From: a virus
Taxonomy: Duplodnaviria > Caudoviricetes
IMG/VR virus record: IMGVR_UViG_3300035670_000226
Span: 1 to 60,246 of that record
DNA: 60,246 nucleotides
Reading direction: 5' to 3' (one strand)
Shown here: positions 18,321 to 47,984 of the stretch, in pieces
How positions within the stretch are numbered: position 1 is the first letter of the stretch
How the letters are laid out: each line of letters begins with the position of its first letter
Program-made: the position numbers and the translations under genes
Notes under the pieces: generated by a model
What the model saw: only the letters and a program-made list of their open reading frames with translations
Databases searched by the model: none
Told to the model about the DNA's origin: nothing

Positions 18321-18935
18321 ATGAAAAAGTTAGCTGTAATAACCGCTATGACACTGATGGTAACTACCTGCAGCGTTCCCGCTACAGGTGACCAGACGGA
18401 GTATGTAGCACATCCTGTGCCACAAAACGTTGGGTTGGTCGAATGGCTTACCGAACAAAAAGAGGCGCAAACCTTGCTGGAACAACAAGCTGAGGCAGCG
18501 GCCAAAAAAGAAGCCGCTGAACAAGCTCAGGAGCAGAAAGTGCTAGACAACACTGTAAAACTAAACGAAGTTGTAGCACGTGTAGTAGACCGAGTCGATA
18601 AAACTCGTTATGTGTTCTCTGGGTCCACACCTAAAGGCTGGGATTGTTCTGGCCTTGTTTTGTGGGCGTATGGAGAACTCGGCATTGAACTAGAGCACCG
18701 TGCCTCTAAACAGCAATACGCAGGCACTGAAGTAGACCACCCTAAACTAGGCGACATTGTGGTCTTTGTATATAACGGACGTAAATCGTCTTATCATGTA
18801 GGTATCTACCTGTATCCAGACACAATGATTCACGCTGGAGGAGACCAGGGAGATGCTACAGAGATTGTTTCCATTAGCAAGTTTGCAGGGAAACACTCAA
18901 CTGTTACATATCGTCGACTTGTAGAAACTCAATAA
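18321..18935 (+). CDS. Secreted NlpC/P60 peptidoglycan endopeptidase
   Basis: Signal-like N-terminus, coiled coil, YVFSG..PKGWDCSGL, HVGIY, MIHA. Confidence 0.9.
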   Translation: MKKLAVITAMTLMVTTCSVPATGDQTEYVAHPVPQNVGLVEWLTEQKEAQTLLEQQAEAAAKKEAAEQAQEQKVLDNTVKLNEVVARVVDRVDKTRYVFSGSTPKGWDCSGLVLWAYGELGIELEHRASKQQYAGTEVDHPKLGDIVVFVYNGRKSSYHVGIYLYPDTMIHAGGDQGDATEIVSISKFAGKHSTVTYRRLVETQ

Positions 18936-18944
18936 GAGATACAA

Positions 18945-18991
18945 TAAGAAAGCCCCCCACATTTCTTGGTTGTGTGGGGGGCTTTCTTTTT
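18945..18991. terminator. Bidirectional terminator between convergent genes
   Basis: aagaaagccccccaca / tgtggggggctttctt with flanking A/T tracts. Confidence 0.8.
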
Positions 18992-19100
18992 AAGCAGTGA
19001 CTAGACGCCGCTTAGCAGCATCAAACTTTTTCGGGCGCTTCTTAGACGCCTTACCATTGTTTCTCTTGTCATTGCGAACTCGTGCACCTTTAGCGGCCAT
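18990..19100 (-). CDS. Very basic 36-aa peptide (not in ORF track)
   Basis: TAATG coupling to upstream gene; MAAKGARVRNDKRNNGKASKKRPKKFDAAKRRLVTA. Confidence 0.55.
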   Translation of the reverse strand: MAAKGARVRNDKRNNGKASKKRPKKFDAAKRRLVTA

Positions 19101-19270
19101 TATCTATCCTTACCCCATCCTGAGCCTTTGAACGTGACCGCTCCTACTCCAAACTTCTTCTGTCTAGGTTTATAGCAATCAGCACAAAGAATAGTAGGTG
19201 ATGCGGTAATTGGGTGAGAAATCTCTACAACTGTACTGCAATGAGCGCAGTAGTACTCATAAGTGGCCAC
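19100..19270 (-). CDS. FmdB-family zinc-ribbon protein
   Basis: TYEYYCAHC...CADC...FKGSGW; GTG start with AAGGAGA SD. Confidence 0.85.
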   Translation of the reverse strand: MATYEYYCAHCSTVVEISHPITASPTILCADCYKPRQKKFGVGAVTFKGSGWGKDR

Positions 19271-19286
19271 ATTTCTCCTTTGCACG

Positions 19287-19366
19287 TGGACTGGGTGGGA
19301 GTCGAACCCACGTTTCTGGAGGAGAGAAAGGAATTAAGCCCCTGCCAGACTTACCAACGCCAGCCC
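19287..19366 (-). ncRNA. Minimal tmRNA-like tRNA mimic (tRNA-like domain only, Ala identity)
   Basis: GGGCTGG/CCAGTCC-A acceptor (G3.U70, A73); stemless D-loop with GG; TCTGG/CCAGA helix; AAC linker; GTGGG-TTCGACT-CCCAC T-arm. Confidence 0.7.
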
Positions 19367-19369
19367 TAA

Positions 19370-19460
19370 GAACAGTGGTGGGGACAAGACCCAGAAGACG
19401 TAATTGAAGGTTTTGTTAGATTAATAGGTGATTAATAAAACCTTGTCCCTACCACTGTTC
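19370..19460 (-). other. Long hairpin (19-bp closing stem) abutting the tRNA mimic
   Basis: gaacagtggtggggacaag / cttgtccctaccactgttc, one mismatch. Confidence 0.65.
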
Positions 19461-19481
19461 AGTTTTGAATAGAAAAGGTTA

Positions 19482-19712
19482 CTACTCCTCAGTTAGAGGT
19501 TCAGCAACAGGTTCAGTATACCGAATTGTGTCAAGGTATGCACTAATTGAGTGGTATGTTGCATCAAAAAATGCACCAGTGTGTGCAAGCAGGTCGCACA
19601 CGTGGGTGTCAGGCTCACGACCATAAGACTGACTCAAATACTCTTCTAGTGCTGGTCCAAAAGTTTCTACAAACTGCTTTGGACTCATGTAGGGCGGATT
19701 AGTGAACGGCAT
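19482..19712 (-). CDS. Hypothetical protein
   Basis: Coupled to hsp20 stop. Confidence 0.6.
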   Translation of the reverse strand: MPFTNPPYMSPKQFVETFGPALEEYLSQSYGREPDTHVCDLLAHTGAFFDATYHSISAYLDTIRYTEPVAEPLTEE

Positions 19713-20236
19713 TAGTTAATCTCAATCTGCTTAGGCTTCTTCTCCTCAGGGAGCTCAAGCTCTAGCATAATGGTTAACAGACCATCTTCAAGCTTGGCGC
19801 TCTTTACCTCAATGTACTCTGCGATAGCAAAGGTAGTGGTGAAGTTGCGCTGAGCGATGCCGTGGTGAATGACTTCGCCGTACTTGCCCTCTTCAGGGAT
19901 GTCGTTGCGGTCTTCAATGTCTGACCGCACCGTGAGAACACGGTCCTTTACAAACACCTCGACCTCTTCCTTCTTGAAACCAGCAAGTGCCATGGTGATG
20001 GTGTAGTTGTCACCAGACTTGGTCAGGTTGTATGGAGGGAAGGAGGGTTTGTGTTGGGACAACTCCTTGAGGGTGCTGAACACAGAGTCGTAGCCAATAC
20101 CCCAACGGTCAATGTTAGGGAATAGAGTGTAAATGGTAGCAGGCTTCTGGTCGACCTTTGCTGGGGTCTTGTAAGGCTGCTTTGGTGGGTAGTGGTCGTG
20201 GTTATCCCACTGTTGGAATTCAGGATTTCTAGACAT
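19712..20236 (-). CDS. hsp20: Small heat-shock protein (Hsp20/IbpA-like)
   Basis: FPPYNL, ALAGF, HHGIAQRNF..TF, AKLEDGLLTI.L...PEEKKPKQIEI. Confidence 0.93.
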   Translation of the reverse strand: MSRNPEFQQWDNHDHYPPKQPYKTPAKVDQKPATIYTLFPNIDRWGIGYDSVFSTLKELSQHKPSFPPYNLTKSGDNYTITMALAGFKKEEVEVFVKDRVLTVRSDIEDRNDIPEEGKYGEVIHHGIAQRNFTTTFAIAEYIEVKSAKLEDGLLTIMLELELPEEKKPKQIEIN

Positions 20237-26505: not shown

Positions 26506-26802
26506 ATGCCTAGTAAGAAGTATTGGAAGATGCTAGACACTGACCACCCTGCTTGTGTGAAGAACACAGCCGCTCTAGCCAGCCTGTCCACTAACTATGA
26601 CTTTCCTTCACCATTCAGTCTGTTCCTAGACCTGATTGGTTGGAGCGAAGACAACCTCGGTGAGAGGTTGTATCAACTAGATAGTCTGCACCTTGACTAC
26701 CTAGCTGGAAGCTACCTCGGTAGTGCTCTGTCTGAGTATTCAGACAAGCCTGACGAGGTTACAGCTTGGGTCACCAAGCTGTGTGCAGAAGAAACAAAAT
26801 AA
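26506..26802 (+). CDS. Hypothetical early protein
   Basis: GGAGGAG SD. Confidence 0.6.
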   Translation: MPSKKYWKMLDTDHPACVKNTAALASLSTNYDFPSPFSLFLDLIGWSEDNLGERLYQLDSLHLDYLAGSYLGSALSEYSDKPDEVTAWVTKLCAEETK

Positions 26803-26824
26803 CAACTGTTCTAAGGAGGACACA

Positions 26825-28591
26825 ATGAGCACAACGCTGCTCACCAAGAGCGACATAATCTTGTCGACTCACGCATCAAGTTACATCCGTATGCAACTTG
26901 ACGGCCACAGGCGTTACCCTGGTGCTGTCTCTGTGTACGGAGATGACCCTGTAGACCTTGACAAGGTTCACAGCGACCCTAACGAGGCTAAGGACTACGA
27001 CAGCCTTGTGCAGACCACTCGTTGGCTTCTCAAGTCTTTCGAGCACGCCGAGCACATCATTAGGAACAAGCACAAGTTCATTGCCCTAGCTGAAGCTAAT
27101 GACGACAGCGTGTCAGTGACCTTCAAGCACGCAGGCATTGTTTCTGTGTGGGATTCAATGCGAGGTACTGATAGCAGGTTGCTCAACATCAGAGCATCTG
27201 CAGTTGGTAAGCTGCTTGAGCCTTACGCAGCTCTGTTGTCATCCGACCACCCCACTGCAATTAGGTACAAAGACTGGGGCTCAAGCGTGTGGGTGTTCAA
27301 CAACCCCAAGCTTCAGCAGAGCTATGTAGGTGACGCACACACACCTACACTGCAACGAGCACTGTGGCTTAGTAAGCGTAACAACTTACTCAACATGCTA
27401 GGCAGTGGTCAGCGTTACGAGACCAAGCGTGACCTAATGGTTGATGACACTCCTCGTATTGCTTTACTTGTACAGCCTGACCACCAGAGCTCAATCACAG
27501 TGAGTGACTTCCGCAAGTTAGCAACAGCAATGGATAGACACGCCAACCACAAGCCGTCTATCTATGACTTGCAGTCCATTCGCTCTGACCTACTCGGTGA
27601 GCAGGTAGCCCTACAACGACACGAGAGTGTTCAGCGTCAGGTCATTGCTCGTGAGAACTTCACCAAGTATTGGGACACACTCAAGCGGGCTATCCGTGAT
27701 GAGGCACCATCGCTTGTGGATGCAGAGCTACAGTGGAGAGAGATACCACTGCACCCAGCAGACACACCAAGCTCACGCACTTGGGGCATTGAGGTCGAGA
27801 CTGTTCGTGCTCACTTGGTTAACCGACCTGCTGGTTGGGACTCACGCTACGATGGCTCACTTCCTGATGAAGGTGGTAGCAGTTGTAACTGTGACTGTGA
27901 CAGCTGCTATGATGGTGACCACTGCAATGACAGAGGCAGTGACTGCTACGACGACAACGATGAGGACATCGAGTCGAGAGAGTTCGTCTCTCCTGTCCTT
28001 GAGAGCTTCAACTCTCGTGGTCTTCGTTCTATCTGTGACGAGCTACCTACCAGAGAGGAACGCACTGAGCCTGGCATCCATGTCCATGTCGGTGCCCGTG
28101 ACTTGACGATAGCAGATGTTGGTAGACTGCTAGTTGCTTACAGCGTAGCTGCACCAATCATCATGCCTCTCTACCACCGAGAGGTATACGGATACTGCAA
28201 GGAGACAGGCACTAGCACCATTCAGTCCTGGCTCAGTGCAGCTCGTAGGTATCTCAAGGAGCAGGGCAGACTGCCTCAGCCTGTAGAAATCTACAGCTCA
28301 CTAAGCAGTGACCGCTACCAAGATGTCAATGTCACAGCACTTGATAGGCACGGCACCATTGAGTTCCGTGCTATGGGTCCTTACTATGACTACGACCACC
28401 TAGTCCGTTGGGCTTGGTTCTGTCGTGAGATGGTCAATGTATCCAAGCTTGGTCTACCTCAGCAGGTATGGACACGGTGCAAGTCTGTACGAGATGTAGT
28501 CACCGTGCTTCGCAAGTACGGTTCAGAGTCACCGTTTGACAAGGACTTCTTGGCAATCGACACAGCATCACTCGTCTTACAAGACGACTAA
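26825..28591 (+). CDS. Putative amidoligase (COOH-NH2 ligase, glutamine-synthetase-like fold)
   Basis: TWGIEVE, EFVSPVL, GIHVHVGA, RYQDVN, GTIEFR; start at MSTT with AAGGAGG SD. Confidence 0.85.
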   Translation: MSTTLLTKSDIILSTHASSYIRMQLDGHRRYPGAVSVYGDDPVDLDKVHSDPNEAKDYDSLVQTTRWLLKSFEHAEHIIRNKHKFIALAEANDDSVSVTFKHAGIVSVWDSMRGTDSRLLNIRASAVGKLLEPYAALLSSDHPTAIRYKDWGSSVWVFNNPKLQQSYVGDAHTPTLQRALWLSKRNNLLNMLGSGQRYETKRDLMVDDTPRIALLVQPDHQSSITVSDFRKLATAMDRHANHKPSIYDLQSIRSDLLGEQVALQRHESVQRQVIARENFTKYWDTLKRAIRDEAPSLVDAELQWREIPLHPADTPSSRTWGIEVETVRAHLVNRPAGWDSRYDGSLPDEGGSSCNCDCDSCYDGDHCNDRGSDCYDDNDEDIESREFVSPVLESFNSRGLRSICDELPTREERTEPGIHVHVGARDLTIADVGRLLVAYSVAAPIIMPLYHREVYGYCKETGTSTIQSWLSAARRYLKEQGRLPQPVEIYSSLSSDRYQDVNVTALDRHGTIEFRAMGPYYDYDHLVRWAWFCREMVNVSKLGLPQQVWTRCKSVRDVVTVLRKYGSESPFDKDFLAIDTASLVLQDD

Positions 28592-34246: not shown

Positions 34247-34567
34247 ATGGAAAGAAGTCTTGTCAAAGTTACTGATGCTCTGTGTGCTGAGGTAGACCCA
34301 GAGTTATTCTTTGCTCAAGACTCCATGAAGTATGGGGGCACCGCATCGTACATCAACGTCAGGTATGCAAAAATGCTGTGTGCTAGGTGCCCTCTTACTT
34401 ACTCTTGTCTTATGACTGCGGTAAAGAACACTGAGGAGTATGGCATCTGGGGAGGGTCAACTCCTAGCGAGCGCCGTCACATTCACACTAATGCAGACGT
34501 AGTAAAGTTCGTGTCAAAACTCAACGATGAGAACCGAGCTTTGCCTAGGCGCAAAAGAAATAGATAA
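34247..34567 (+). CDS. whiB: WhiB-family Fe-S transcription factor
   Basis: C.EVDPELFF...AK.LC..CP....C...YGIWGG; basic tail RRKRNR. Confidence 0.93.
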   Translation: MERSLVKVTDALCAEVDPELFFAQDSMKYGGTASYINVRYAKMLCARCPLTYSCLMTAVKNTEEYGIWGGSTPSERRHIHTNADVVKFVSKLNDENRALPRRKRNR

Positions 34568-39627: not shown

Positions 39628-41474
39628 TAACGGCCTCTTCCCTTGCCAGCAGACTGGGCTGCAAGTTTTGCTTCGTATTCAGAAGCAGCTTCTGGACTTG
39701 GAGCAGTAAACGCCGATGGGGTACGGTGTGCTGGAATTACTGGAGCATCAGAAGTCTCCATAATTCCTGTAAACGCCTGCTCTAAACGAGTCTTTCTGCT
39801 CTTAGGAGCAGCTGGCTTCAAGTCAGTCTTTGCCTCAACGTTAGTAGCTACGCCTCGGTTAGTAGGCTTAGCGGTAGTTGGGGTAGAAAAACCCTGCTCA
39901 TTCAGATACCGTTCTGGGTTGTAAACAACCATCTTCATGCGGGCCTTGTTCTTAGTAGCAAATGTGCTGTTGTGGTGATGCATCGCTGCTTCTGCAATGT
40001 TTCCATTGTTAATCATTGCTTGCGTTTCATCTGCGACTATCTTTTCACGCTTTTGACGAATGCTAATTTGAGCTGCGTAACCCGCCATTTCTTTTGCCTT
40101 GTTTTCCTCAGTAATTTTTGCAGCAGCTGCTTGCTGAGAAGTAAACTGTGCTGTGGTACTGGGTGAAAATGGGAAAGGCTTTGGTAAATCCTTAGTAAGA
40201 TTAGGGCTAGGTAGGCCTCGCTCTTTAGGGTCTGCAGTCTTCCAAGACTCCAGCAGCCTGCCTCTGTTTTCTTCGTGCTTTGCTTGCTGCTCTGGGGTCA
40301 GTGGCTCAAACTTTGGCATCAAAGCGCTGGGGTCATATGGAACAGGCTTGGTTGGTGCCTTAGCTTTTTCTGCAGCATCCCGAGCTTCAAAGTAAGCCCT
40401 GTCTGCCGCCGCTGCTCGTTCCCTAGCGGGAGCCGTAGCTTCGGTAATGCGAACACGCTCTGCCTGCTTTGCAGCACCTTCAGCCTGTGTCTCTTCCAAA
40501 GGTCTAAGAGACGGCCGTTGTGGACGAGGCTGCGCTGAAATTGGCTCGTAATCTGGGTCTGTATATGCCTCTGGCTTTGGACTGTACCCTGCTCCTCGCA
40601 AAGCAGCCAAAACAGCTGTCTCTTCAGGCTGCTTCTCTGTCAAGGAGTAGCGGTTTCTCACTACGTTTGACATACCAATGTGGCCTGCGTTTACCTTATT
40701 GTACTTTCCACCTGTAATAGTTTCCAAGTCTGTAGCAGCATTAGTTACGTGAGTTACAGCAGCAGTTAGGTGGTCAGCAGCTCCCTTGATTTTTCCACTG
40801 TTTCTGCTTAGTACGTTTCCCGCAATGTGAGCGTCTTGAGCAGCAGAATTCTTCTCATATGCTTTGCCCAACTGACTCCAGATGCCGTCAAAATCTTCTG
40901 CCTTGCCACCTGCACGGATGTGCTGCTGCATGTGGTGCTCAACGTGAGCCTCTAGCTGCTCAATAGAATCGTGCATCTCAGCAAAATGACGCAAATTAGG
41001 GCTGGCTGCAGTTGTCGCTTGGCTCTCTCCAGTGCGGTAATCATACCCACCAAATTTTGGGTCCATTACCTTTTCGGTTATTCTGGCCTTTTGACCGCCT
41101 TGGTTGACTATTCTCTTTACGTTTCTAGGCGCAGGAGGAATTACTTTTCCAACAGGAGCTTTTACTGCAAAAGATGTAGCAGCTAGGCCTCTAGCACCAG
41201 CGTAAGCTGCCCCTAGCTTGCCTCGGTTTTCAGCGCTAACGCCTGCATTCTCATACAGGTGGTTGTATACCTCTCCAACATCGCTAACTTTGTCTAGTTG
41301 AGCAGCAGGAACTCGGACAGTAGCACCACCTTCTGGCCGTACTACTGCAGGGGTCTCGACCATTGGTGCTACAGAACGTCCTGTAGAGGTAGTCTCTGGC
41401 TGAGATACTCTCTTTAGGTAGTCTTCAGTAGCTTCGCCTTCTTGTGGAAGGTACTTAGAAAAATCAGTAGTCAT
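39627..41474 (-). CDS. Large low-complexity protein (possible internal virion protein)
   Basis: 615 aa, Ala/Pro/His-rich, no Cys. Confidence 0.65.
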   Translation of the reverse strand: MTTDFSKYLPQEGEATEDYLKRVSQPETTSTGRSVAPMVETPAVVRPEGGATVRVPAAQLDKVSDVGEVYNHLYENAGVSAENRGKLGAAYAGARGLAATSFAVKAPVGKVIPPAPRNVKRIVNQGGQKARITEKVMDPKFGGYDYRTGESQATTAASPNLRHFAEMHDSIEQLEAHVEHHMQQHIRAGGKAEDFDGIWSQLGKAYEKNSAAQDAHIAGNVLSRNSGKIKGAADHLTAAVTHVTNAATDLETITGGKYNKVNAGHIGMSNVVRNRYSLTEKQPEETAVLAALRGAGYSPKPEAYTDPDYEPISAQPRPQRPSLRPLEETQAEGAAKQAERVRITEATAPARERAAAADRAYFEARDAAEKAKAPTKPVPYDPSALMPKFEPLTPEQQAKHEENRGRLLESWKTADPKERGLPSPNLTKDLPKPFPFSPSTTAQFTSQQAAAAKITEENKAKEMAGYAAQISIRQKREKIVADETQAMINNGNIAEAAMHHHNSTFATKNKARMKMVVYNPERYLNEQGFSTPTTAKPTNRGVATNVEAKTDLKPAAPKSRKTRLEQAFTGIMETSDAPVIPAHRTPSAFTAPSPEAASEYEAKLAAQSAGKGRGR

Positions 41475-47653: not shown

Positions 47654-47984
47654 TTAGGCCCTCCCTTTCTTTAAAGATGTAGTCCTTTAAACTCATCTTA
47701 CCTTTATAGCTCTTTTGCCACTTTCGCACAAGTGCGTTACGTTCTCTATGCGATAAGCCTCCCCATATTCCATGCTGCTCTTCTGTCACCACCGCCTCCC
47801 ACAAGCAGTTTGCTCGAACTGGGCAAGGAAGGGTTCCTTTAGGGCCATTGCAGTATGTTTTAGCTTCTGCGGCTATTTTGTTATATAGAAGCTTGTCTCT
47901 CGGTGGATAGAATATCTCCGTGTCTGCGGTTGCACACTTTGCGTCTGCTCTCCAAGAAAAGTCAAGATTTTCGTCAAGTATCAA
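47634..47984 (-). CDS. whiB: WhiB-family Fe-S transcription factor (second copy)
   Basis: WRADAKC...EIFYP...AK.YC...CPVRANC...GIWGGLS.RER. Confidence 0.92.
   Translation of the reverse strand: MILDENLDFSWRADAKCATADTEIFYPPRDKLLYNKIAAEAKTYCNGPKGTLPCPVRANCLWEAVVTEEQHGIWGGLSHRERNALVRKWQKSYKGKMSLKDYIFKEREGLNASNEH

What the first reader, a model, noticed from the sequence alone, without database searches (positions are those of the whole stretch)
19287..19366. 80-nt mini-tmRNA: alanine-identity tRNA-like domain with no mRNA-like domain
Seen: the minus strand reads GGGCTGG-CGTTGGTAAG-TCTGG-C-AGGGG-cttaattcctttct-CTCCT-CCAGA-AAC-GTGGG-TTCGACT-CCCAC-CCAGTCC-A. This gives a 7-bp acceptor stem with G1-C72, G2-C71, G3.U70 and discriminator A73, a D-loop with GG but no D-stem, a P2-like helix, a 3-nt linker and a canonical T-arm. 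Established: G3.U70 and A73 are AlaRS identity elements, and a stemless D-loop plus P2 is the tmRNA tRNA-like domain bound by SmpB. Here the roughly 250 nt of pseudoknots and tag ORF is replaced by a short hairpin, and CCA is not encoded. Inference: an alanylatable RNA that either decoys SmpB/EF-Tu or rescues stalled ribosomes without degradation tagging, i.e. phage control of host trans-translation.
Basis: partly seen in the sequence, partly recalled or inferred. Interest (0 to 1): 0.9.

Follow-up and report, generated by a model that had tools for sequence, protein, structure and literature searches.

The report
Phage mini-tmRNA without tag message
An 80-base phage RNA gene that resembles only the alanine-accepting tRNA end of the bacterial ribosome-rescue RNA (tmRNA); it belongs to a widespread, almost unannotated phage family whose one studied relative is reported to block the host's rescue system.

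Summary
Window 19287-19366 (-) folds as described: a 7-bp acceptor stem with G3.U70 and A73, a stemless 10-nt GG segment, a long hairpin, an AAC linker, a T-arm and no encoded CCA. It is a real RNA gene. A covariance model links it to 31 distinct elements from viral contigs (96% of cells paired, 12 of 17 pairs with double-sided changes, G3.U70 invariant). An independent set of 8 comes from isolated Microbacterium phages, where it sits unannotated inside the tRNA array.

The kind is already published. Mycobacteriophage DS6A carries a 'TLD only' tmRNA, reported to inhibit host tmRNA, perhaps by titrating SmpB. My model, built without DS6A, recovers that element.

The window copy is a divergent variant. 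Rfam's tmRNA model matches only its T-arm, the canonical D-loop part that contacts SmpB is missing, and its acceptor also equals that of archaeal tRNA-Ala. A close relative lacks the element cleanly.

Function is inferred: most likely a tRNA-like-matured, alanine-chargeable competitor in trans-translation. No expression data exist. I rate it a new variant of a known kind. The breadth of the family and the tractable Microbacterium phages are the useful new points.

The parts
19287..19366 (-). whole 80-nt tRNA-like-domain-only RNA gene (mature form would probably gain CCA after 19287)
   Evidence: sequence; fold; R1 model 78.2 bits; member of alignment A4
19360..19366 (-). 5' strand of acceptor stem (positions 1-7), G3 at 19364
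   Evidence: pairs 1-7 are 100% paired in 31 of 31 sequences, pairs 4-6 covary, pairs 1-3 are invariant
19350..19359 (-). stemless D segment, 10 nt, GG at 19354-19355
   Evidence: GG present in 38 of 38 parsed members, modal length 10 nt
19315..19349 (-). long hairpin in the place of tmRNA helix H2/P2 and everything beyond it (10 bp, bulged C at 19344, 14-nt loop)
   Evidence: all 5 basal pairs show double-sided changes across the family; loop length and sequence are not conserved
19312..19314 (-). AAC linker before the T stem
   Evidence: AAC or NAAC in 29 of 38 parsed members, but AAC was fixed by the scan pattern
19295..19311 (-). T arm: 5-bp stem and 7-nt T loop
   Evidence: matches Rfam tmRNA model positions 346-363, 13.4 bits (which also covers 19312); 3 of 5 stem pairs covary in A4 and 4 of 5 in A5
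19288..19294 (-). 3' strand of acceptor stem (positions 66-72), U70 at 19290
19287..19287 (-). discriminator A73, followed by CGT (no encoded CCA)
   Evidence: A73 in 8 of 8 isolate copies found by BLAST
19100..19273 (-). context: small Zn-ribbon ORF; its AAAGGAG ribosome-binding site begins 6 nt after the element and its ATG 14 nt after
   Evidence: PF09723, E 6.7e-05, below cut-off; no PHROG match

Best explanation
It is a phage-encoded small RNA gene of the 'tRNA-like-domain-only tmRNA' kind. It has an acceptor/T-arm minihelix with alanine identity (G3.U70, A73), a stemless GG loop that makes the tRNA elbow, and a plain hairpin where tmRNA has helix H2, the pseudoknots and the tag reading frame.

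Shown here: the structure, its conservation and covariation, its kinship with DS6A's published element, and its placement inside tRNA gene arrays in isolated phages.

Inferred: it is cut out of the HSP20-operon transcript by the tRNA-processing enzymes, receives CCA from the host enzyme and is charged by AlaRS. It then competes with host tmRNA for SmpB, EF-Tu and/or the empty A site of stalled ribosomes. During infection this would damp ssrA tagging, and with it the degradation of proteins from the phage's own broken or non-stop messages.
For: Anatomy.

Family: the scan that left position 70 and the 5' strand free gave 38 distinct non-tRNA candidates, 25 of them with this architecture. 17 of the 19 that came only from that scan have G3.T70.

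Covariation: 31 distinct sequences, 96.2% of cells paired against 69.2% in shuffles (0 of 500 reach it) and 44-58% when slid. 12 of 17 pairs have double-sided changes. G1-C72, G2-C71 and G3.U70 hold in 31 of 31. The isolate-only set of 8 gives 91.9% against 29-54% slid, 7 of 17 pairs with double changes, and G3.U70 and A73 in 8 of 8.

Link to tmRNA: DS6A's element (JN698994 28478-28557) scores 43.9 bits with my model although it was not in the seed. Rfam's tmRNA model aligns end to end with DS6A (34.7 bits), with 10 of 10 class members (29-50 bits, one above the gathering score), and with L088 and lineage B.

Precedent for function: PMC4131195 and PMC11915505 (passages read) state that a DS6A-like TLD-only molecule strongly inhibits tmRNA in E. 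coli, perhaps by titrating SmpB. PMC3968760 (passages) reports an isolated alanyl-TLD with SmpB and EF-Tu crystallised on a stalled ribosome.

tRNA-like maturation: in 8 of 8 Microbacterium phage contexts examined the element lies in or at the tRNA array. In lineage B an extended -10 box ends 7 nt before G1 (read from the sequence).

Not an att site: no integrase in the contig or beside the element, and the 5' acceptor strand is present.
Against: This copy matches Rfam's tmRNA model only through its T-arm (13.4 bits against a gathering score of 47). Its sibling L012 and lineage D match neither tmRNA nor tRNA, lineage C scores best as tRNA, and Franklin22 matches neither.

Only 4 nt follow the D-segment GG, against 7 (aUUCGAC) in the Rfam tmRNA consensus. 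That stretch holds C18/G19, and a G19C change abolishes SmpB binding (PMC8363625, passages). Only DS6A among 38 parsed members keeps the TCGA motif, so SmpB binding is doubtful for the whole short-loop class.

The acceptor sequence equals that of archaeal tRNA-Ala: 62 of 94 genome hits are tRNA-Ala. A tRNA-Ala origin for this lineage therefore cannot be excluded.

The element is dispensable. L019 lacks it cleanly, L018 has a degenerate hairpin and linker, and an element-less junction co-occurs in runs X1 and X2.

No SmpB gene and no conserved protein partner were found. I could not read Mao et al. 2009 and know it only through two citing papers.
Confidence: 0.45

Rival explanations
1. Tag-less rescuer. 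The alanyl-RNA enters stalled ribosomes (with SmpB) and accepts the nascent chain. With no message to resume on, the peptidyl-RNA is released or hydrolysed, which frees ribosomes without marking phage proteins for degradation. This is the role proposed for CDS-less mitochondrial and plastid tmRNAs.
For: Same anatomy as for the best explanation. PMC11915505 (passages) says CDS-less organellar tmRNAs, co-occurring with SmpB, are thought still to help with incomplete mRNAs. An isolated TLD can enter the A site (PMC3968760, passages).
Against: No conserved stop codon or reading frame in the hairpin loop: the loops differ in length and sequence, and lineage C has a 4-nt loop. No release mechanism is known. 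The same doubt about SmpB contacts applies. The only experiment cited for a phage form reports inhibition, not rescue.
Confidence: 0.15
2. SmpB-independent alanine tRNA mimic. An anticodon-less alanyl minihelix acts outside trans-translation. It could titrate or occupy AlaRS, EF-Tu or tRNA-modifying or tRNA-cleaving enzymes (a decoy for tRNA-targeting defences), or donate alanine to a tRNA-dependent transferase.
For: G3.U70, G2-C71 and A73 are the most conserved features while the SmpB-contacting loop part is gone. L018 keeps only the 12-bp acceptor/T stack, with a compensatory T-stem change. The window lineage is recognised by neither the tmRNA nor the tRNA model. The acceptor equals a tRNA-Ala acceptor.
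Against: No conserved neighbouring enzyme: no gene family is shared across lineages within 4 kb. Most of the class still aligns to tmRNA better than to tRNA. The hairpin is maintained by compensatory changes, so more than a minihelix is under selection.
Confidence: 0.17
3. RNA-processing or stability signal. A tRNA-shaped punctuation mark draws RNase P and 3' tRNA nucleases to cut the polycistronic transcript, or protects the 5' end of the downstream message. Charging would be irrelevant.
For: Always in sense orientation and intergenic. The next start codon is 14 nt (lineage A), 4 nt (lineage B) and 13-14 nt (lineage C) after A73. A very stable conserved hairpin lies just upstream. No own promoter or terminator lies next to it in the window.
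Against: Distances to flanking genes range from 1 to several hundred nt across the 31 members, so it is not tied to one gene or to a start codon. A processing signal would not need an invariant G3.U70 and A73. In isolated phages it is one unit in a tRNA array.
Confidence: 0.1
4. Decayed tRNA-Ala gene, or a remnant of an integration site, without function.
For: Absent from L019 and degenerate in L018. ARAGORN and Rfam do not call it.
Against: The same non-cloverleaf architecture recurs in many unrelated phages with compensatory changes. The 5' acceptor strand is present, which an att remnant would lack. There is no integrase. The natural variants listed for run X5 fall in unpaired or variable positions plus the 7:66 junction pair (48 further differences were not shown).
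Confidence: 0.03

Closest known systems
'TLD only' tmRNA of Mycobacterium phage DS6A (tmRNA Website tmID 11587; Hudson, Lau & Williams 2014, PMC4131195; PMC11915505)
   Same: Both are 80 nt. Both have a 7-bp acceptor stem with G3.U70, A73, a stemless GG segment, a hairpin instead of H2, pseudoknots and tag frame, a 3-nt linker, a T-arm and no encoded CCA. Both are intergenic, in sense orientation and unannotated in the record. Both are found by model R1 (window 78.2 bits; DS6A 43.9 bits, not in the seed). Both hosts are probably actinobacteria.
   Different: DS6A keeps a 14-nt D segment with the canonical tmRNA ending and aligns end to end to Rfam tmRNA (34.7 bits). The window element has 10 nt without that motif and matches only through its T-arm. 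The linker is CAC against AAC, and the acceptor sequence differs (C4-G69 here). DS6A has an integrase; none was found in the 60 kb held here.
tRNA-like domain of canonical bacterial tmRNA (Rfam RF00023)
   Same: Acceptor stem with G3.U70 and A73, T-arm, D-loop without a stem, and a helix leaving between D-loop and T-arm (PMC3968760, passages).
   Different: No mRNA-like domain, tag frame or pseudoknots. The D-loop is shorter, lacking the UUCGAC part that holds C18/G19. It scores below Rfam's gathering score (13.4 against 47 bits). It is phage-borne.
CDS-less tmRNAs of jakobid mitochondria and Mallomonadaceae plastids (~65 bp) (PMC11915505, passage read)
   Same: tmRNA reduced to roughly its tRNA-like domain, with no tag reading frame.
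   Different: Those are organellar, retained together with SmpB, and regarded as still serving the organelle. I held no sequences of them to compare. Rfam listed no mt-tmRNA match at E up to 10 (lower-scoring clan overlaps are hidden).
tRNA-Ala and alanine minihelices
   Same: G3.U70, G2-C71 and A73. The acceptor sequence is identical to that of archaeal tRNA-Ala genes. From recall, not tested here: acceptor/T-arm minihelices with G3.U70 are substrates of AlaRS.
   Different: No D stem and no 7-nt anticodon loop or anticodon. ARAGORN finds nothing, and the Rfam tRNA model scores below 13.4 bits on it.

Membership tests
tmRNA (Rfam RF00023) | Acceptor stem formed by the 5' and 3' ends with G3.U70 and discriminator A | tested here: met
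   invariant in 31 of 31 and 8 of 8
tmRNA (Rfam RF00023) | tRNA-type T arm | tested here: met
   matches model positions 346-363, E 0.0015
tmRNA (Rfam RF00023) | Reduced D-loop with GG and no stem | tested here: met
tmRNA (Rfam RF00023) | Canonical 3' part of the D-loop (consensus GGaUUCGAC) carrying the SmpB contacts U17, C18 and G19 | tested here: not met
   the window has GG plus 4 nt; consensus; contacts from PMC8363625; the motif is kept in 1 of 38 parsed members, DS6A only
tmRNA (Rfam RF00023) | mRNA-like domain with resume codon, tag frame and stop; pseudoknots | tested here: not met
   only 35 nt lie between the D segment and the linker; ARAGORN finds no tmRNA, standard or permuted. 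As a positive control, the same tools find the unannotated permuted tmRNA of phage SM1
tmRNA (Rfam RF00023) | Score at or above Rfam's gathering score, or at least an end-to-end alignment | tested here: not met
   13.4 bits, local, against 47
tmRNA (Rfam RF00023) | Charged with alanine; binds SmpB and EF-Tu | not testable with these tools
   needs biochemistry
TLD-only (CDS-less) tmRNA, DS6A type | About 65-90 nt: acceptor with G3.U70 and A73, stemless D segment, closed hairpin, short linker, T arm | tested here: met
TLD-only (CDS-less) tmRNA, DS6A type | Shared sequence-structure profile with the published example | tested here: met
   R1, seeded without DS6A, scores DS6A at 43.9 bits, E 6e-07. 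Caveat: ordinary tRNA-Ala genes reach 39-43 bits with R1, so R1 alone does not separate the two
TLD-only (CDS-less) tmRNA, DS6A type | End-to-end alignment to the tmRNA model with the middle deleted | tested here: not met
   true for DS6A and for 12 of 16 other members scanned. Not true for the window, L012, L005 and L003. Also not true for Franklin22, which is outside that count
TLD-only (CDS-less) tmRNA, DS6A type | Inhibits host trans-translation | not testable with these tools
   reported for a DS6A-like molecule in E. coli (PMC4131195 and PMC11915505, citing Mao et al. 2009, which I did not see)
canonical tRNA (Rfam RF00005), tRNA-Ala | Cloverleaf with D stem and 7-nt anticodon loop | tested here: not met
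   ARAGORN finds 0 genes; no tRNA match listed at E up to 10; fold
att site / 3' fragment of a tRNA or tmRNA gene carried by a temperate phage | Only the 3' part of the gene, next to an integrase | tested here: not met
   the 5' acceptor strand is present and covaries; no PF00589 match in the contig; the neighbours are not integrases. Caveat: the contig is about 63% complete

The most novel reading that the evidence does not exclude
The short-D-loop elements, including this one and those in lytic Microbacterium cluster EB phages, may form a large unrecognised family of phage-encoded, anticodon-less alanine-acceptor RNAs. They would have diverged from the tmRNA tRNA-like domain (or converged on it from tRNA-Ala) far enough to no longer use SmpB. 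They would then act by a mechanism not yet described, for example entering or blocking ribosomes on their own, sequestering AlaRS or EF-Tu, or acting as bait for tRNA-directed host defences.
Probability: 0.2. Interest if true: 0.8.

Novelty: new variant of a known kind. Interest (0 to 1): 0.55.

Why it matters
Trans-translation is the main ribosome-rescue pathway of bacteria and is being pursued as an antibiotic target. That phages might switch it off with a tiny RNA has rested on one phage gene (DS6A) tested in E. coli. In the passages I read, the 2025 tmRNA database paper names DS6A as the only phage CDS-less form. Here the same architecture turns up in dozens of unrelated uncultivated phages. 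It is also present, unannotated, in about twenty isolated lytic Microbacterium phages that grow on a harmless host. That makes the question 'do phages routinely interfere with ribosome rescue, and how?' directly testable. It also shows a blind spot in annotation: ARAGORN misses these elements or mislabels them as tRNA-Pro or tRNA-Ile, and Rfam mostly scores them below threshold.

Tried and rejected
Expression: the look-up of sequencing runs listed no RNA holder, so nothing can be said about transcription. Read laying used DNA contigs only. I used it for natural variants and for one element-less junction, not for expression or habitat.

Conserved partner protein: clustering all ORFs within 4 kb of 31 members found no family shared beyond close relatives. 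The one sub-group with a shared upstream ORF (L093, L101, L180) hits only an unknown-function PHROG, not an integrase.

SmpB in the contig: only a 12.8-bit match against a cut-off of 27.

Host by nearest isolate: the best PolA identity is 37%, to Streptomyces phages. Two WhiB genes suggest an actinobacterial host, but this stays an inference.

Region BLAST of 18900-19800 against isolated phages: no match.

Other branches in isolates: L002 and L180 gave no match. L089 hit only 27-nt T-arm/acceptor stretches in Listeria and Streptococcus phage records, which I did not follow. L104 hit annotated full-length tmRNAs of large mycobacteriophages and an unannotated permuted tmRNA in Pseudomonas phage SM1, not mini forms. 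Synechococcus phage BUCT-ZZ01 gave a weak hit (27.8 bits, A3-U70, mismatches), which I do not count as a member.

A micro-tag in the hairpin loop (resume codon plus stop) was considered and rejected because the loops share no frame, stop or length.

MAFFT alignments A1 and A2 were unusable for the 5' strand and were replaced by the Infernal alignment A4.

Rows left out: A4 holds 31 members that I chose. I left out L164 (G3-C70) and L125 and L152 (C3-G70), which are short D-armless elements scoring 35-40 bits, and the 37-locus 'GAAGGGC' group (A3-U70). L138, counted as 'class-like', is probably an ordinary tRNA. C71, C72, A73 and the AAC linker were fixed by the scan pattern, so their invariance in A4 is not evidence.

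Literature: five completed searches found no report of TLD-only phage RNAs beyond DS6A. Mao et al. 2009 was not found in the library and was not read. PMC11662646 (host t(m)RNA fragments bound by an anti-CRISPR), PMC10542128 (SmpB-like domain in CoCoNuTs) and PMC9004378 (full two-piece phage tmRNAs) were read in passages and do not bear on this element.

Full report
OBSERVATION. The unconstrained minimum-free-energy fold reproduces the proposed parts:
- a 7-bp acceptor stem with G1-C72, G2-C71 and G3.U70;
- ten unpaired bases containing GG;
- a 10-bp hairpin with one bulged C and a 14-nt loop;
- an AAC linker;
- a 5-bp T stem with a 7-nt loop;
- discriminator A.

The next bases are CGT, so CCA is not encoded. 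Folding energy alone is unremarkable: -29.6 kcal/mol, z = -1.81, and 11 of 200 shuffles fold as well. ARAGORN finds no tRNA or tmRNA anywhere in the window, and Rfam finds nothing at gathering score. A permissive local scan finds only the T-arm, matched to tmRNA model positions 346-363 at 13.4 bits against a gathering score of 47.

WHAT THE WINDOW IS. It is a 60,246-bp IMG/VR viral contig, about 63% complete. It carries terminase, portal, family A DNA polymerase, HSP20 and an NlpC/P60 peptidase. Two WhiB-family genes are present; among the 14 control genomes only Corynebacterium has this family. The nearest isolate polymerases are from Streptomyces phages at 37% identity. Together these suggest an actinobacterial host, but that is an inference. 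The element lies in a gap of a minus-strand gene row, between HSP20 with a 76-aa ORF upstream and a small Zn-ribbon ORF downstream. The Zn-ribbon gene's ribosome-binding site starts 6 nt after the element. No promoter-like or terminator-like site adjoins it.

IT IS A CONSERVED RNA, NOT A CHANCE FOLD. A first pattern that fixed the acceptor sequence found the same layout in four unrelated viral lineages, all ARAGORN-negative. Within lineage B the hairpin keeps pairing through three changed pairs.

A second pattern left position 70 and the entire 5' strand free, fixing only AAC, the T-arm core and C71-C72-A73. It gave 129 matches in the loci then held: 27 were tRNAs by ARAGORN and 102 were not. 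The 102 include 38 distinct candidates with a paired acceptor, and 25 of those have the D-armless, long-hairpin, short-linker layout. Of the 19 that came only from this unbiased scan, 17 have G3.T70. One exception (L138) is probably an ordinary tRNA, and the other (L152) is a shorter element with C3-G70.

I built covariance model R1 from 11 sequences and searched all 181 held sources. I then aligned 31 distinct members that I selected. On that alignment:
- 96.2% of cells form standard pairs, against 69.2% in shuffles (0 of 500 reach the observed value) and 44-58% when the partners are slid;
- 12 of 17 pairs show double-sided changes;
- acceptor pairs 4-6 covary freely, while G1-C72, G2-C71 and G3.U70 never change.

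Caveats: C71, C72 and A73 were fixed by the scan pattern, and I left out three short non-G.U elements and a separate 37-locus group.

AN INDEPENDENT SET FROM ISOLATED PHAGES. BLAST of the window element against isolate genomes hit Microbacterium phage Franklin22. There an unannotated 88-nt element plus encoded CCA lies at 39916-40003, between tRNA-Asn and tRNA-Gln, and scores 46.3 bits with R1. BLAST with that copy finds 26 Microbacterium phage records with nothing annotated under the match. In 8 of 8 contexts examined, spanning three phage genera, the element lies in or at the head of the small tRNA array at the right genome end. These 8 copies give:
- 91.9% of cells paired, against 29-54% when slid;
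- 7 of 17 pairs with double-sided changes (4 of the 5 T-stem pairs);
- G3.U70 and A73 in 8 of 8;
- CCA encoded in 2 of 8.

The paper on these phages describes cluster EB as lytic, with 1-3 tRNA genes at the extreme right end. It does not mention this element in the passages I read (PMC7302621).

RELATION TO WHAT IS KNOWN. Hudson, Lau and Williams 2014 list 'Mycobacterium phage DS6A (TLD only)'. They write that its sequence is little more than the tmRNA tRNA-like domain. They add that a similar molecule, chargeable or not, strongly inhibits tmRNA, perhaps by titrating SmpB, citing Mao et al. 2009 (PMC4131195, passages). The 2025 tmRNA database paper repeats this and names CDS-less forms in jakobid mitochondria and two plastids. 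DS6A is the only phage example in the passages I read (PMC11915505).

I located the DS6A gene at JN698994 28478-28557, where it is unannotated. It is also 80 nt and has the same layout. R1, built without it, scores it at 43.9 bits. Rfam's tmRNA model aligns end to end, with the 312-nt middle deleted, to:
- DS6A, at 34.7 bits;
- 10 of 10 class members tested, at 29-50 bits, one above the gathering score;
- L088 and lineage B.

So the class as a whole is tmRNA-like, and it scores better as tmRNA than as tRNA.

HOW THIS COPY DIFFERS. The window element, its sibling L012, lineage D and Franklin22 are recognised by neither the tmRNA nor the tRNA model. Lineage C scores best as a generic tRNA.

The class has a short D segment: modal length 10 nt, with 4-5 nt after the GG in 26 of 38 parsed members. 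The Rfam tmRNA consensus has GG followed by aUUCGAC. Only DS6A keeps that motif. This matters for mechanism. In E. coli, SmpB's Trp122 sits in a pocket formed by A15, U17 and A334. G19, stacked on C18, packs on SmpB, and a G19C change abolishes binding (PMC8363625, passages). The phage class nearly always has a G at the junction of D segment and hairpin, and an A in the linker (dependent on my parse). These could be the equivalents, but that is conjecture.

The window's acceptor sequence also equals that of archaeal tRNA-Ala genes. Of 94 genome hits to its 3' half, 62 are tRNA-Ala by ARAGORN and none is a mini element. The acceptor therefore cannot decide between a tmRNA and a tRNA-Ala origin for this lineage.

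DISPENSABILITY. Three close relatives were compared by HSP20 synteny:
- L017 has the element almost unchanged.
- L018 has a copy with a shortened hairpin, a changed linker and a 6+6-bp acceptor/T stack. It retains G3.U70 and carries a compensatory T-stem change.
- L019 lacks the element cleanly.

In metagenome contigs, an element-less junction of the L019 type occurs in the same runs as the window's form. The variants listed for a related population fall in the variable D-segment positions, the bulged C, one T-loop position and the 7:66 pair (48 further differences were not shown).

MECHANISM. Shown: the structure, its covariation, the invariant alanine identity set, kinship with DS6A's element and placement among tRNA genes.

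Inferred:
- Maturation by RNase P and 3' tRNA processing, CCA addition and charging by AlaRS. The sufficiency of G3.U70 and A73 comes from the review PMC3968760; that minihelices are substrates is from recall.
[quoted passage not shown] I put about 45% on the inhibitor reading and 15% on tag-less rescue. I put 17% on an SmpB-independent alanine mimic, which the missing SmpB-contact motif keeps alive. I put 10% on a pure processing or stability signal. The remaining 13% covers a functionless remnant (3%) and functions not considered here.

Against an att-site remnant: the 5' strand is present and covaries, the contig has no integrase, and the neighbours are not integrases. No protein partner is conserved next to the element, and the contig has no SmpB. 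No RNA data exist for it.

VERDICT. New here:
- The architecture is widespread in uncultivated phages.
- It is present and unannotated in about twenty cultivable lytic Microbacterium phages.
- Most members, including this one, have a shortened D-loop that lacks the canonical SmpB-contact motif.
- Current tools miss or mislabel them. ARAGORN called two members tRNA-Pro and tRNA-Ile.

I rate it a new variant of a known kind, of moderate interest.

Noticed in passing
window 19367-19465 (-), inverted repeat arms about 19372-19388 and 19442-19458: A very stable long-range hairpin lies directly upstream of the element (-35 kcal/mol, z = -6.16, 0 of 200 shuffles as good). It is conserved with apparently compensatory changes in L017, L018 and L019, and it is present in L019 where the tRNA-like element is absent. 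It could be an RNase III-type processing site or a regulatory structure. Rfam's only hit there is a chance-level miRNA match.
   Followed up: partly
37 loci, e.g. L068, L070, L075, L078, L080 (positions): A separate group of 67-77-nt D-armless tRNA-like elements: 22 distinct sequences, a 6-bp acceptor with A3-U70, the same AAC linker and T-arm, and no CCA. Most come from contigs sharing one metagenome prefix. They do not carry alanine identity and their function is unknown.
   Followed up: partly
L008 8794-8865, L009 2432-2511, L010 750-823: tRNA genes with the same acceptor as the window element, including G3.U70, but ARAGORN calls them tRNA-??? (odd anticodon loop), tRNA-Gly(ccc, 80 nt) and tRNA-His(gtg). 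They could be identity-switched or suppressor-like phage tRNAs.
   Followed up: no
L112 11849-11954 (-): A 106-nt element with a G3.U70 acceptor and a longer D segment ending GGTTTCGAT, close to the Rfam tmRNA consensus. It has only about 60 nt between D segment and T-arm, so it looks intermediate between full tmRNA and the mini forms. ARAGORN is negative and R1 gives 41.3 bits.
   Followed up: no
L125 1616-1678, L152 10676-10739 (-), L164 5539-5602 (-): 63-64-nt D-armless mini elements with C3-G70 or G3-C70, that is, the same shape without alanine identity.
   Followed up: no
L093 6251-6337, L149 808-887 (-): ARAGORN labels these class members tRNA-Pro(agg) and tRNA-Ile(gat), although they have no D stem and carry a long hairpin. 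This could be a source of mis-annotation in phage genomes.
   Followed up: partly
L168 2001-2075 (-): An int-alpA RNA (RF02996, 37.4 bits, above its gathering score of 35.8) lies 12 nt from the mini element at 2087-2160.
   Followed up: no
L289 = Pseudomonas phage SM1 NC_041877 53504-54730: An unannotated permuted (two-piece) tmRNA gene (RF04321 118.6 bits, beta_tmRNA 111.2 bits) and a tRNA-Arg lie in a stretch with no annotated features. The same 27-nt match occurs in PaMx31, FBPa45 and UF_RH6.
   Followed up: partly
window 34271-34480 (+) and 47730-47954 (-): Two WhiB-family genes (69 and 64 bits), pointing to an actinobacterial host.
   Followed up: partly
window 26723-28591 (+): A 622-aa protein with an Amidoligase_2 domain (E 2.5e-09), about 7 kb from the element. 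I found no link to it.
   Followed up: no
L279 1435-1527 = Synechococcus phage BUCT-ZZ01 ON615601, under CDS UTS52133.1: A weak tRNA-like match (R1 27.8 bits) has a T-arm and 3' acceptor identical to the window element's, plus encoded CCA. Its 5' strand is mismatched (A3-U70). It is annotated as a hypothetical protein.
   Followed up: partly
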